Source of the DNA: Escherichia coli
GTDB taxonomy: Bacteria > Pseudomonadota > Gammaproteobacteria > Enterobacterales > Enterobacteriaceae
Length of the DNA: 64,000 nucleotides
Assembly (NCBI RefSeq): GCF_013315695.1
Contig: NZ_CP054353.1
Direction: 5' to 3' (one strand)
The position numbers are program-made. Of this stretch, positions 22,788-25,700 are shown one piece after another (the stretch's first letter is position 1; every line of letters starts with the position of its first letter).

Positions 22788-25700
22788 TTAAACAAAAAAA
22801 CGAAGCAAGCATACGCCTGATGGCGGTCCAAAAAAAAGAGTCATCTTGCCTAAGAGTATTGGCAGGATGGTGAGATTGAGCGACAATCGAGTTACACCGT
22901 CGCTTAAAGTGACGGCATAATAATAAAAATATGAAATTCCTCTTTGACGGGCCAATAGCGATATTGGCCATTTTTTTAGCGCAACATCTGCGGCAAATTC
23001 CCTTCTCCATACAGGTGTAGTGCACCGACCGCGACCACATATCGCCCCGGCGGCATGGCGCGTAATTTATCCCGCCAGGCGAGATTTCGCTGATGCATCA
23101 GCACATCGTACAGCGACTGACTGAACGTATTGGGCAGCGTTATATCATTATTTTGCGGCGGTGCATTCAGCCACCAGCTCATCATTTGTTGCAGCAACCG
23201 TGCATTGGTGTGCCAGTGGGTCAGCGTATCGTCCAGCAGTGCCAGTCCGTTGTCAGGGAGCTGGAGCAACATGGCAATCTGGTTTTCTGCCCCTTCCAGT
23301 TCAATCACGGGTTTATGTTGTTGCTTCGCCGCCTGCAATAGCTGGTAATCGATACCGTATTCTGCCCGCAGCCCCAGTTTTTGTGCCTGCCTCGCCTGAA
23401 GAACCATCGCGATTTGCCACAGCGGTTGGGTAGAAAAGAGTGAGGTAGAAATGCCCATCTCCTGGCTAATGTGCTGCAGGTTTTGGAGTTGCTCCTCGCT
23501 AATGCGCTCTTCCAGTGCCTCGCAGGCAGGCAAATTGGCAAAAGGCGTATCGCTGGTGGAAACATCCGCCTCGACGATCAGCGCATCGGCGTTTTTGAGC
23601 TTTTTGAGCAAACGGGTGGGCAGGGGAGCCATATCGTGGCTACCCATATGAATACTGCCGAGCAGATGAAAATGGCGATTGCCGGGAAGAGAGATATCGA
23701 TAGCAGGCCAGGTGTAATGATTACCGCGCAGCGCGGCCCAAAGCGTTTTTACCCGGTACAACAGATCCATACGACCTCCCTTTGTGAAATATCATGCTAG
23801 CGCGCGGGGAGGGATGGCGCAAATGGAGTTATGAGGCTTGTTCAGTGGTAGCTTAAATATGATCGAAAAATTGTTTTTGCTTTGAAACGAAAGACTGCAC
23901 GGGTGTTGGTGGCGTCAAAATCGCCGAGGCGTTCCCTGAAGGCCGGGGCAGCCCACATGGATGTGGGCTGAGGGCGCGTTTTACAGGGATAATGAGATGG
24001 ACGCTCCAGATTTTACGGTATCAAAGTACCAGACTGGATCGTTGCAATACGTCCTGAAAAATTAGGAGCGTCCACATGAAAGTATCAACTCTTGGTATCG
24101 ACCTGGCAAAGAACGTTTTTCAGCTTCATGGTGTCGATCATGAAGGCCATACTATTTTGCGTAAAAAGCTCACCCGGGCTAAGTTTGTTCAGTTTGTGAT
24201 TCAACTGGAACCTTGTCTGATTGGCATGGAAGCCTGCTCATCCAGTCATTATTTTGCGCGATTATTCACCCGCTATGGTCATGAGGTAAAACTCATACCT
24301 CCGCAGTATGTGAAGCCTTATGTGAAAACGAACAAGACGGATGCAGCAGATGCTGAAGCAATCTGCGAAGCGGTAACCCGTCCGAATATGCGTTTTGTTC
24401 AGATAAAAACCGAAGAGCAGCAGGCCGTTTTAGCGTTACACACTGAACGGGGAATACTTATCCGTGAGCGGATTGCCTGTGCCAATAGTTTAAGAGCCAC
24501 ACTTGCTGAGTTTGGTATTACGATTGCGGCCGGACAAAGCCATTTAACACGTGAGCTGCCAGCCATTCTGGAGGATGGCGAAAATGGTTTATCTCCCTTT
24601 GTCAGAACCAGCATCTACAGACAGTCTAAACATATCCGGGAACTTGAAGAACAAGTTAAACAGGTAGAAGAAGCTCTGGCCTCCTGGTATAGAACGCAGG
24701 AAGCCTGCCAGAGAATGGCCAAGATCCCGGGGGTTGGCATGCTAACGGCCACTTATGTGGTAGCAGCAGTGGGTAATGCCCGACAATTCAGTACCGCAAA
24801 GCAGTTCGCTTCATGGCTGGGGCTGACACCAAAGGAACATTCCAGCGGCGGGAAACAGCAACTGGGAGGGATCAGCAAACGTGGAGATGGATATTTCCGA
24901 TACCTGCTGGTTCACGGCGCACGCGCACTTACCGCCTGGGTCAACCGAAACGGCGCGGTTGAGGAGAATTCCTGGCTTCAGGGACTCCTTGAGCGGAAGC
25001 ACTACAATGTAGCTGTTGTCGCCATGGCGGCAAAAACAGCGAGGATCATGTGGTCAATGTTGTCACACAATACTGAATATCAACCTCGGCAGCTCGCCTG
25101 ACACAAGGTCAGTCAATCTGACGAGGTGCTGAAAAAAAGTTAACGTCCTGGTAGGTGCAGGTGACTTCAGAAGATGGCAAAACAGGTAAGACCGCAGGCA
25201 GGATACACCGAGAGGTAACAAGGGCAAGTTAGCCCGTAGAGGATGATTGGTACCTGCCTGGCGGATTTCATCATGGTTCGGGATAAAAATCCCATCAGAA
25301 ACCGGATATATGGCTGCACCTACCCGTTTTATTACATAACTGAAGAAAGCATTGCATTCCGGGAGCGTCCATATATGTTACCTCGCGCCCGACCCGGTAG
25401 CCGCAAGGGATAAGCCGAGGGTACCGCGCAGCGGCGATTTTGTTCGCCAGAGCCCGGGGGTGCAGGGGGCGGCGGCGATTGGCCGCCCCCTGCGCGCTCC
25501 TTGCGCCAGTCACTTTATATGGCATGACTCATAAAAGGAGCGCAACAAGAACTGGATCTCACAAACGCATTAAGTAAATACCAATCACTCTTTCGGTTTA
25601 AACCTCAGCAACCGGTTGGCGTTACTCACTACGGTAATCGACGAGAGCGCCATTGCCGCTCCGGCAACCACCGGGTTAAGCAGCGTACCGGTGAACGGCC

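What the first reader, a model, noticed from the sequence alone, without database searches (positions are those of the whole stretch)
23990..25380. IS110/IS1111-family element between ybaP and copA with a candidate bridge-type guide RNA region
A 341-aa DEDD-type transposase gene is bracketed by perfect 11-bp inverted repeats (atggacgctcc at 23998-24008, ggagcgtccat at 25361-25371), with a third copy (ggagcgtccac, 24066-24076) that doubles as the RBS and start region. The gene sits close to the left end and leaves about 260 bp of non-coding DNA (25102-25360) on the right, the IS1111-subgroup layout. IS110-family recombinases are guided by a structured non-coding bridge RNA encoded in the non-coding end, so this region is a candidate for one. 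The K-12 neighbour ybaQ, which I expect between ybaP and copA, was not detectable in either flank.
Basis: partly seen in the sequence, partly recalled or inferred. Interest (0 to 1): 0.7.

Follow-up and report, generated by a model that had tools for sequence, protein, structure and literature searches.

The report
ISEc81 insertion sequence with bridge RNA

Summary
The protein is 337/341 identical to ISfinder's ISEc81. An empty site in another strain sets the ends at 23990-25375 (1386 bp, no target duplication).

The non-coding region aligns with nine relatives that are only 40-53% identical in protein. It folds into two stem-loops with strong covariation (95% of cells paired; 19 of 30 pairs with compensatory changes). 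The loop strands change together with each element's own flanks and ends. In ISEc81, GAGGUAACA (25212-25220) pairs with the 9 nt to the right of the insertion point. GGAU (25241-25244) matches the left flank. UUUCAU and AUAUAU match the element's own ends. Joining the ends would create a TTGCAT-16-TATAAT promoter.

The target is the loop of a hairpin in the TRIP1 repeat; the window copy is TRIP1e. ybaQ is absent because this lineage carries TRIP1e instead, not because of the IS.

A bridge RNA in the right end of ISEc81 was already predicted by Durrant et al. 2024. Novelty is low; the TRIP1 target and the guide assignment are small additions.

The parts
23895..23989 (.). Left part of the TRIP1e repeat, which is the target. 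It ends ...GGGCGCGTTTTACAGGGA.
   Evidence: The flanks are homologous at all sampled insertion sites. They are 100% identical to the empty site L009. The TRIP1e position comes from PMC10888264.
23990..25375 (+). ISEc81, complete copy, 1386 bp, with no target-site duplication.
   Evidence: Ends set by comparison with the empty site. The transposase is 337/341 identical to ISfinder ISEc81. Copies 99.4-100% identical lie at three other loci.
23990..23996 (+). Left-end extension TAATGAG (family consensus nAATGnn). It supplies TAAT of the -10 box of the junction promoter. Its bases ATGAG, plus the first A of the repeat, are the predicted partner of the 5' strand of the donor loop.
23997..24007 (+). 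Left subterminal inverted repeat ATGGACGCTCC.
   Evidence: conserved in relatives.
23998..24074 (+). 5' UTR hairpin. The left repeat (23998-24014) pairs with 24058-24074, which holds the third repeat copy and the AGGAG ribosome-binding site at 24064-24068. It probably sequesters the ribosome-binding site.
   Evidence: pair I1: 17 nt, 88% complementary. (-30.2 kcal/mol; the ribosome-binding site also lies in a long helix in the predicted 5' UTR fold of most of the nine relatives).
24076..25101 (+). tnp, the DEDD (RuvC-like) transposase/recombinase, 341 aa. It carries the GLTPKEHSSG motif (GL-P----SG).
   Evidence: the motif definition is from PMC11187229.
25169..25194 (+). Conserved sequence upstream of the bridge RNA stem-loops (AGAAGATGGCAAAACAGGTAAGACCG). 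Its role is unknown; it may be a processing or protein-binding site.
   Evidence: Nearly invariant columns 14-40 of alignment A5.
25195..25260 (+). Stem-loop 1, the target-binding loop. Base stem 25195-25202/25253-25260; inner stem 25207-25209/25249-25251; distal hairpin 25222-25225/25233-25236.
   Evidence: All 8 base-stem pairs show compensatory changes.
25212..25220 (+). Right-flank guide GAGGUAACA. It is complementary to the top strand TGTTACCTC (25376-25384) directly to the right of the insertion point.
   Evidence: (pair I11). Equivalent 9-nt perfect matches occur at the same place in L022, L031 and L035, and with G-U pairs in L029 and L025.
25241..25245 (+). Left-flank guide GGAU(G). 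It has the same sequence as the top strand GGA|T(G) at the insertion point, so it would pair with the bottom strand. It is short in ISEc81 (4-5 nt) and 9-12 nt in most relatives.
25261..25317 (+). Stem-loop 2, the donor-binding loop. Helices 25261-25264/25314-25317, 25270-25278/25300-25307 and 25280-25283/25290-25293.
25266..25271 (+). Donor guide UUUCAU, complementary (with one G-U pair) to the left-end ATGAGA (23992-23997).
   Evidence: Own pairing is 6/6 in 9 of 10 elements. Covarying examples: TGTCAT/ATGACA, TCTTAT/ATAAGA, TTTCAT/ATGAAA.
25306..25311 (+). Donor guide AUAUAU. It has the same sequence as the right end plus the first left-end base (AT-ATA|T) of the circle junction.
   Evidence: It covaries in relatives: ATACAAAA, ATGTAT, ATATAGA.
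25352..25357 (+). -35 box TTGCAT of the promoter that forms only when the right and left ends are joined. The -10 box TATAAT is 25374-25375 plus 23990-23993, with a 16-nt spacer.
   Evidence: An equivalent TTGnnn/TAnAAT arrangement is present in 10/10 relatives. No + strand promoter-like site is found in the integrated copy.
25362..25372 (+). Right subterminal inverted repeat GGAGCGTCCAT.
25373..25375 (+). Right-end extension ATA (family consensus RYA).
25376..25546 (.). Right part of the TRIP1e repeat. It begins TGTTACCTCGCGCCC.

Best explanation
Window 23990-25375 is an intact copy of ISEc81. ISEc81 is a 1386-bp insertion sequence of the IS1111 group of the IS110 family.

**Shown**
- It lies, in a fixed orientation and without target duplication, between A and T of ...TTTTACAGGGA|TGTTACCTC....
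- This site is the apical loop of the GGGCGCG/CGCGCCC hairpin of a TRIP1 repeat, here TRIP1e, the ybaP-copA spacer of this lineage.
- The 3' non-coding region contains two covarying stem-loops, and their loop strands match the flanks and ends as set out below.

**Inferred mechanism, by analogy with ISEc11 (seekRNA) and IS621 (bridge RNA)**
1. The DEDD recombinase excises the element as a circle.
2. Joining the right and left ends creates a TTGCAT-16-TATAAT promoter. This promoter drives tnp and, by read-through and processing, the non-coding RNA encoded at about 25169-25317.
3. Stem-loop 1 (25195-25260) reads the target. Its 5' strand GAGGUAACA pairs with the top strand to the right of the crossover. 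Its 3' strand GGAU(G) pairs with the bottom strand to the left of it.
4. Stem-loop 2 (25261-25317) reads the element's own joined ends with the same geometry. UUUCAU pairs with the left-end ATGAGA, and AUAUAU pairs with the bottom strand of the right end ATATA plus T.
5. The RNA thus bridges the circle and TRIP1, and the recombinase exchanges strands at the A|T step.
6. In the integrated copy, the left repeat pairs with the ribosome-binding-site region. No internal promoter is detected, so expression is probably low.
For: **Identity of the element**
- Pfam domains DEDD_Tnp_IS110 and Transposase_20.
- 337/341 identity to ISfinder ISEc81 and 43% full-length identity to the ISEc11 transposase.

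**Ends and target**
- An empty ybaP-copA site has flanks 100% identical to the window's.
- The same TRIP1 position and orientation are used at yegH-asmA and at dusC-yohP, and in three Kluyvera copies.
- An empty yegH-asmA site also exists.

**RNA structure**
- Alone, 25185-25270 folds with a z-score of -3.7.
- In a 10-sequence alignment, 41 pairs are predicted and 20 have compensatory changes.
- For the 30 pairs of the two stem-loops, 95.3% of cells are paired against 27-44% when partners are slid. 19 pairs change on both sides, and 0 of 500 shuffles reach the observed values.

**Co-variation of guides with flanks and ends**
- The 5' strand of the target loop is perfectly complementary over 9 nt to its own right flank in the window, L022, L031 and L035. 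With G-U pairs allowed, the match is also 9 in L029 and 7 in L025. The mean own match is 8.1 against 4.5 for other elements' flanks.
- The 3' strand of the target loop equals the left flank plus the left end over 9-12 nt in eight of the nine relatives (6 nt in L015).
- The donor-loop strands match their own left end at 6/6 positions in 9 of 10 elements, and their own right end over 6-8 nt.

**Promoter**
- The junction promoter is conserved in 10/10 elements, and there is no internal + strand promoter.

**Literature**
- The 3' non-coding region and its RNA are essential for ISEc11, and the circle junction forms a promoter there (PMC11187229).
- Durrant et al. list ISEc81 with a predicted bridge RNA in the right end.
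Against: - There is no transcript, circle or transposition data for ISEc81, so every mechanistic step is inferred.
- The left-flank guide of ISEc81 is short (GGAU, 4-5 nt). Together with L015, it lacks the AAUG continuation that matches the left end in the other relatives.
- AUAUAU in the donor loop is self-complementary, so its strand assignment rests on the relatives.
- L023 and L020 match their right flanks poorly (5-6 nt). These copies may sit at non-cognate or decayed sites.
- No Rfam family matches the region.
- E. coli and Kluyvera copies are invariant across the stem-loops, so they add no covariation.
- RNA ends and processing sites are unknown.
Confidence: 0.88

Rival explanations
1. 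The recombinase protein recognises the TRIP1 hairpin directly, by its DNA structure or sequence. On this view the conserved 3' non-coding structure is only an mRNA stabiliser, terminator or protein-binding DNA, not a guide.
For: The target lies in the loop of a strong hairpin in a highly structured repeat. The left-flank guide of ISEc81 is only 4-5 nt. No RNA data exist for this element.
Against: Relatives sit in unrelated flanks, yet the same loop positions change to match each element's own flanks and ends. No terminator-like site was found in the non-coding region. For ISEc11, the RNA from this region was shown to be essential and reprogrammable (PMC11187229).
Confidence: 0.05
2. The copy is an inactive relic. 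It was inherited vertically at this locus and no longer moves.
For: The integrated copy has no detectable promoter and its ribosome-binding site is sequestered. Only 175-179 of 5426 genomes carry the element, at 1-4 places each. Truncated relics exist on plasmids.
Against: The ORF and both ends are intact. The identical protein WP_000868863.1 is encoded at three different TRIP1 loci, in copies 99.4-100% identical in DNA. Empty and occupied versions of the same loci coexist in the species. All of this points to recent movement.
Confidence: 0.07
3. TRIP1 and the IS form one composite mobile unit, and its arrival deleted ybaQ.
For: ybaQ is missing and the IS is always seen inside TRIP1.
Against: TRIP1e without the IS occupies ybaP-copA in other strains, with flanks 100% identical and no ybaQ. 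TRIP1 is present in 5425 of 5426 genomes, but the IS is in only about 179. TRIP1e is described independently of any IS.
Confidence: 0.01

Closest known systems
ISEc81 (ISfinder entry; IS110 family, IS1111 group)
   Same: The transposase is 337/341 identical. Durrant et al. place ISEc81 in the IS1111 group and record its predicted bridge RNA in the right end.
   Different: There are four amino-acid differences (A91T, S154N, W288R, E296K relative to the reference). The ISfinder DNA entry could not be consulted, so its length and ends could not be compared with the 1386 bp found here.
ISEc11 and its seekRNA (Siddiquee et al. 2024, PMC11187229)
   Same: Both have a transposase of about 340 aa (43% identical over the full length). 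Both have subterminal repeats with a 7-nt left extension and a 3-nt right extension, no target duplication, a 3' non-coding region encoding the RNA, and a promoter formed at the circle junction. In both, the segment complementary to the top strand lies 5' of the segment complementary to the bottom strand.
   Different: The targets differ: GTGAAAATACTG for ISEc11, the TRIP1 hairpin loop for ISEc81. ISEc81 has not been tested experimentally.
IS621 bridge RNA (Durrant et al. 2024, PMC11208160; Hiraizumi et al. 2024)
   Same: Both have a two-loop RNA in which one internal loop reads the target and the other reads the donor. In each loop the two strands read opposite DNA strands on either side of the crossover.
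   Different: IS621 belongs to the IS110 group. Its RNA is encoded in the left end, upstream of the gene; its repeats are only 2-3 bp; it has a CT core; and it targets REP sequences. In ISEc81 the RNA is in the right end, the repeats are 11 bp, and the data require only one base to be shared between the left end and the right flank.
ISPa11 / ISKpn4 / IS4321-IS5075 (IS1111-group elements that target repeats)
   Same: All insert at a fixed position and orientation in a repeated, potentially folded sequence: REP, attC, or the Tn21 terminal repeats.
   Different: The target is different. I found no paper in the searchable library that reports TRIP1 as an IS target.

Membership tests
IS110 family, IS1111 group | DEDD (RuvC-like) transposase with the C-terminal PF02371 domain and the GL-P----S/T-G motif | tested here: met
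   PF01548 E 3e-15 and PF02371 E 1e-24. GLTPKEHSSG is present in the translation.
IS110 family, IS1111 group | Subterminal inverted repeats of 7-17 bp with short terminal extensions | tested here: met
   Perfect 11-bp repeats lie 7 nt from the left end and 3 nt from the right end. The same layout is seen in nine relatives.
IS110 family, IS1111 group | The longer non-coding region lies downstream of tnp | tested here: met
   86 nt (23990-24075) upstream against 274 nt (25102-25375) downstream.
IS110 family, IS1111 group | Sequence-specific, orientation-specific insertion without target duplication | tested here: met
   Comparison of empty and occupied sites. The same TRIP1 position and orientation are used at every sampled E. 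coli and Kluyvera copy.
IS110 family, IS1111 group | The transposase is related over its full length to IS1111-group transposases | tested here: met
   43% identity over 336 aa to the ISEc11 transposase. It clusters with IS4321 and IS5075 in the Durrant supplement.
Bridge RNA / seekRNA-guided recombinases | A structured non-coding RNA region with conserved, covarying helices | tested here: met
   95.3% of cells paired, 19 of 30 pairs with changes on both sides, slid-partner controls 27-44% paired.
Bridge RNA / seekRNA-guided recombinases | Loop segments complementary to both strands of the target around the insertion point | tested here: met
   The right-flank guide is 9 nt and perfect. The left-flank guide is 4-5 nt in ISEc81 and longer in relatives. 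Own matches exceed matches to other elements' flanks.
Bridge RNA / seekRNA-guided recombinases | Loop segments complementary to the donor (the element's ends) | tested here: met
   The second stem-loop matches its own left end at 6/6 positions in 9 of 10 elements, and its own right end over 6-8 nt.
Bridge RNA / seekRNA-guided recombinases | The RNA is transcribed, binds the recombinase and is required for recombination | not testable with these tools
   No expression or biochemical data are available. This was shown only for relatives (ISEc11, ISPa11, ISKpn4, ISPst6).
Bridge RNA / seekRNA-guided recombinases | A circular intermediate whose junction forms a promoter | tested here: inconclusive
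   The sequence predicts TTGCAT-16-TATAAT across the joined ends, and the arrangement is conserved in 10/10 relatives. The circle itself cannot be observed here.
ISEc81 (same IS by the ISfinder isoform criterion, recalled as >98% aa and/or >95% nt) | Near-identity of the transposase and DNA to the reference entry | tested here: met
   The protein is 98.8% identical. The DNA reference was not available, so nucleotide identity was not tested.

The most novel reading that the evidence does not exclude
ISEc81 has specialised on TRIP1. TRIP1 is a structured chromosomal repeat of about 265 bp and unknown function, present in nearly every E. coli and also in Kluyvera. ISEc81 uses the exposed loop of one TRIP1 hairpin as a harmless landing pad. 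In the ISEc81/L015 sub-lineage, the 3' strand of the target loop has lost the AAUG match to the left end that the other relatives keep. This would imply a variant guide geometry with a very short left-flank guide. It would make TRIP1 the first E. coli repeat other than REP shown to be an RNA-guided IS target, and would give TRIP1 a biological role as an IS sink and a substrate for rearrangement.
Probability: 0.3. Interest if true: 0.35.

Novelty: already known. Interest (0 to 1): 0.2.

Why it matters
This result matters little for discovery. ISEc81 is in ISfinder. NCBI's PGAP pipeline already labels some copies "IS110 family RNA-guided transposase". The bridge/seek RNA mechanism of the family was established in 2024, and a bridge RNA was already predicted in the right end of ISEc81.

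The analysis does add some useful annotation:
- exact ends of the element (1386 bp);
- its natural target, a hairpin loop of the TRIP1 repeat, including a sixth TRIP1 locus at yegH-asmA;
- a base-level assignment of the four guide segments, supported by natural co-variation across ten elements.

Anyone wanting to test or reprogram an E. coli-native IS1111-type recombinase could use this. It also explains why some TRIP1 copies appear split in genome surveys.

Tried and rejected
- **Rfam.** Rfam 15 was scanned over the region, over two empty-site loci and over the whole window. No family matched the non-coding region or TRIP1. The only hits were ChiX/sroB and the dnaX frameshift element elsewhere, plus a chance mir-611 match below threshold.
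- **Close copies for covariation.** The E. coli and Kluyvera copies are invariant across the stem-loops and gave no information. Distant relatives were needed.
- **Alternative left-flank match.** NCR CGTTTTA (25325-25331) equals the left-flank CGTTTTA. I rejected it as a guide because it lies outside the conserved stem-loops, is not adjacent to the crossover, and has no counterpart in relatives.
- **Internal promoter.** None was found for tnp or the RNA in the integrated copy.
- **IS-caused loss of ybaQ.** Rejected on the evidence of the empty TRIP1e site.
- **TRIP1 as part of the mobile element.** Rejected.
- **Two-base core.** A two-base AT core duplicated at both junctions fits the window. 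Relatives require only one shared base (left-end base 1 = right-flank base 1), and two copies have T at one position and C at the other.
- **Covariance model.** I did not build one to extend the family, because the existing alignment already gave decisive counts.
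Full report
**1. The observation**

The sequence is as described, apart from one-base coordinate slips.
- An ATG-initiated ORF of 341 aa runs from 24076 to 25101 on the + strand.
- It carries the two Pfam domains of IS110-family transposases: DEDD_Tnp_IS110 (E 3e-15) and Transposase_20 (E 1e-24).
- Perfect 11-bp inverted repeats lie at 23997-24007 (ATGGACGCTCC) and 25362-25372 (GGAGCGTCCAT).
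- A third copy, 10/11 identical, lies at 24065-24075. It abuts the start codon and includes the AGGAG ribosome-binding site.
- 260 nt of non-coding DNA separate the stop codon from the right repeat.
- ybaQ is absent. K-12 has ybaQ followed by REP repeats in the ybaP-copA spacer.

**2. Identity**

- The protein is 337/341 identical to the ISEc81 transposase. I took that sequence from the FASTA file of ISfinder transposases deposited with Siddiquee et al. 2024 (PMC11187229).
- It is 43% identical over its full length to the transposase of ISEc11, the IS1111-group element in which the seekRNA was demonstrated.
- RefSeq annotates some copies as "IS110 family RNA-guided transposase".
- The element occurs in 175-179 of 5426 complete E. 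coli genomes, at 1-4 places per genome, and the full-length copies are 99.4-100% identical to the window's.

**3. Ends, target and the ybaQ question**

- I fetched six further copies: four at yegH-asmA and two at dusC-yohP. Five of them were aligned, and their flanks are homologous to the window's flanks on both sides and in the same orientation relative to the IS.
- A query made of the joined flanks matches 5425 of 5426 genomes, with a median of three places per genome. The IS therefore sits in a resident repeat.
- Strain EC42405 has this repeat uninterrupted between ybaP and copA, with no ybaQ. Its sequence is 100% identical to both window flanks, which overlap by two bases.
- The empty site reads ...GCGCGTTTTACAGGGATGTTACCTCGCGCCC.... 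The occupied site reads ...ACAGGGA-TAATGAG-ATGGACGCTCC...GGAGCGTCCAT-ATA-TGTTACC....
- Following the convention of Siddiquee et al. (7-nt left extension, 3-nt right extension, no duplication), the element is 23990-25375, 1386 bp.
- The repeat is TRIP1 (Rudd 1999; Li et al. 2024, PMC10888264). The window copy is TRIP1e, which that paper places 124 bp from the ybaP start codon and 38 bp from the copA stop codon.
- The absence of ybaQ is therefore a property of the lineage and was not caused by the IS.
- The yegH-asmA copy is a divergent TRIP1 that is not among the five loci in that paper. It is empty in many genomes.
- A Kluyvera genome carries three ISEc81 copies (96.5% nt identity) in the same repeat.
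- In a fold of the repeat, the insertion point lies in the loop closed by GGGCGCG/CGCGCCC.

**4. The non-coding region**

On its own, 25185-25270 folds into a stem with a large internal loop and a distal hairpin (-32.2 kcal/mol, z -3.7).

A scan of one genome per species returned 34 related loci. Nine of them share the element's layout although they are only 40-53% identical in protein:
- the repeat consensus ATGGACGC(C)TCC;
- a left extension nAATGnn;
- a right extension RYA;
- a 3' non-coding region of 253-319 nt.

The last ~215 nt of these non-coding regions align well.
- RNAalifold predicts 41 pairs, and 20 of them have compensatory changes.
- For the 30 pairs of the two stem-loops, 95.3% of cells are paired, against 27-44% when partners are slid by 1-3 columns.
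- 19 pairs change on both sides, and no shuffle out of 500 reaches any observed measure.
- In window coordinates, stem-loop 1 is 25195-25260 and stem-loop 2 is 25261-25317. A nearly invariant stretch lies upstream at 25169-25194.

**5. Guides**

The unpaired strands of the two internal loops are the variable parts of the alignment. They vary in step with each element's own DNA.

*Stem-loop 1, 5' strand*
- In the window, GAGGTAACA (25212-25220) is the exact complement of TGTTACCTC, immediately to the right of the insertion point.
- L022 (ATGTCGTCC), L031 (CATGTCGTT) and L035 (GTTCACGTT) each have a perfect 9-nt complement to their own right flank, at the same loop position and starting within one base of the junction.
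- L029 reaches 9 and L025 reaches 7 when G-U pairs are allowed.
- The mean match to an element's own flank is 8.1, against 4.5 to the flanks of other elements.

*Stem-loop 1, 3' strand*
- This strand has the same sequence as the top strand of the left flank, continuing into the left end. Examples are L031 ACGGAGG+AAATG, L025 CGGCGG+AAATG and L029 TTGAAA+GAATG.
- ISEc81 matches only GGA+T(+G) at 25241-25245.

*Stem-loop 2, 5' strand*
- In the window, TTTCAT (25266-25271) pairs with the left-end ATGAGA.
- Across the ten elements, the own match is 6/6 in nine. Covarying pairs include TGTCAT/ATGACA, TCTTAT/ATAAGA and TTTCAT/ATGAAA.

*Stem-loop 2, 3' strand*
- In the window, ATATAT (25306-25311) has the same sequence as the right extension plus the first left-end base or bases of the joined ends.
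- It covaries in relatives: ATACAAAA, ATGTAT, ATATAGA.

Both loops therefore use one geometry. The 5' strand reads the top strand to the right of the crossover, and the 3' strand reads the bottom strand to the left of it. The first loop reads the target and the second reads the circularised donor. This is the bridge RNA logic of Durrant et al. 2024 (PMC11208160) and the order of top-strand and bottom-strand matches that Siddiquee et al. report for IS1111 seekRNAs.

**6. Expression**

- Joining the right and left ends creates TTGCAT, a 16-nt spacer and TATAAT. An equivalent TTGnnn/TAnAAT arrangement spans the junction in all ten elements.
- No + strand sigma-70-like site is found in the integrated copy.
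- The left repeat pairs with the ribosome-binding-site region (17 nt, 88% complementary; -30.2 kcal/mol for the 5' UTR). In the predicted folds of most relatives the ribosome-binding site also lies in a long helix. This explains the "third copy" of the repeat.
- These are sequence-level inferences. A promoter at the circle junction was demonstrated for ISEc11, not for ISEc81.

**7. What is known already**

- ISEc81 is an ISfinder entry.
- Durrant et al.'s supplementary table lists "ISEc81 RE IS1111", meaning a covariance-model prediction of a bridge RNA in its right end.
- Three papers in the searchable library mention ISEc81, all as genome-survey entries.
- The TRIP1 paper does not mention an IS.
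- The element and its mechanism class are therefore known. The TRIP1 target, the exact ends and the guide assignment are incremental additions.

**8. Limits**

- Nothing here shows transcription, circle formation or activity.
- The left-flank guide of ISEc81 is short.
- Two relatives (L020, L023) match their right flanks poorly.
- The ISfinder DNA entry could not be consulted.
- Only nine further ISEc81 copies, besides the window's, were inspected at the sequence level.

**Verdict**

The finding is ordinary: a catalogued RNA-guided insertion sequence in its natural repeat target.

Noticed in passing
window 23895-23989 and 25376-25546; L003/L006/L007 flanks; hits H96-H107: The flanking repeat is TRIP1. 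A divergent TRIP1 copy lies between yegH and asmA and is empty in many genomes. It is not among the five TRIP1 loci (a-e) described by Li et al. 2024, and that paper does not report IS insertions in TRIP1.
   Followed up: partly
L008:2876-2885 (CP076706) and L014 (Kluyvera), right junction: Two copies read CCATATA|CGTTACC, with C instead of T at the first right-flank base, while the first left-end base stays T. The base shared between the left end and the right flank in all other elements is therefore mismatched here. This may reflect a variant TRIP1 target or tolerance at the crossover position.
   Followed up: no
L008:1580-2647: In strain CFIAFB20120266 the tnp stop codon is changed from TGA to TGG. 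The gene is annotated as 355 aa (WP_000868865.1) and reads into the non-coding region.
   Followed up: no
L046:2501-2849 (plasmid NZ_JBSQBR010000002.1): A 349-bp relic, 93% identical to the tnp 3' end plus most of the bridge RNA region, lies unannotated on a 132-kb plasmid. It sits between type VI secretion genes and IS3/Tn3 debris. A second plasmid (CP022280) carries a 5'-truncated copy next to an IS66 transposase.
   Followed up: partly
window 24016-24040 and the 5' UTRs of relatives: A small hairpin (window CGGTATCAAAGTACC; relatives CGGCATCAAAGTGCC) is conserved in the 5' UTR of all ten elements. It is separate from the helix that sequesters the ribosome-binding site. Its function is unknown.
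   Followed up: no
window 22894-22977 (+): The ChiX (sroB) small RNA gene lies in the ybaK-ybaP spacer, as in K-12 (Rfam 81 bits).
   Followed up: yes
window 8423-8487 (+): The dnaX programmed -1 frameshift element is present (Rfam 97 bits).
   Followed up: no
window 25462-25493: A perfect 12-bp GC-rich hairpin (GCAGGGGGCGGC / GCCGCCCCCTGC, 8-nt loop) lies inside the right part of TRIP1e. It is part of a very stable predicted fold of the repeat (-140 kcal/mol for 241 nt). The function of TRIP1 is unknown.
   Followed up: partly
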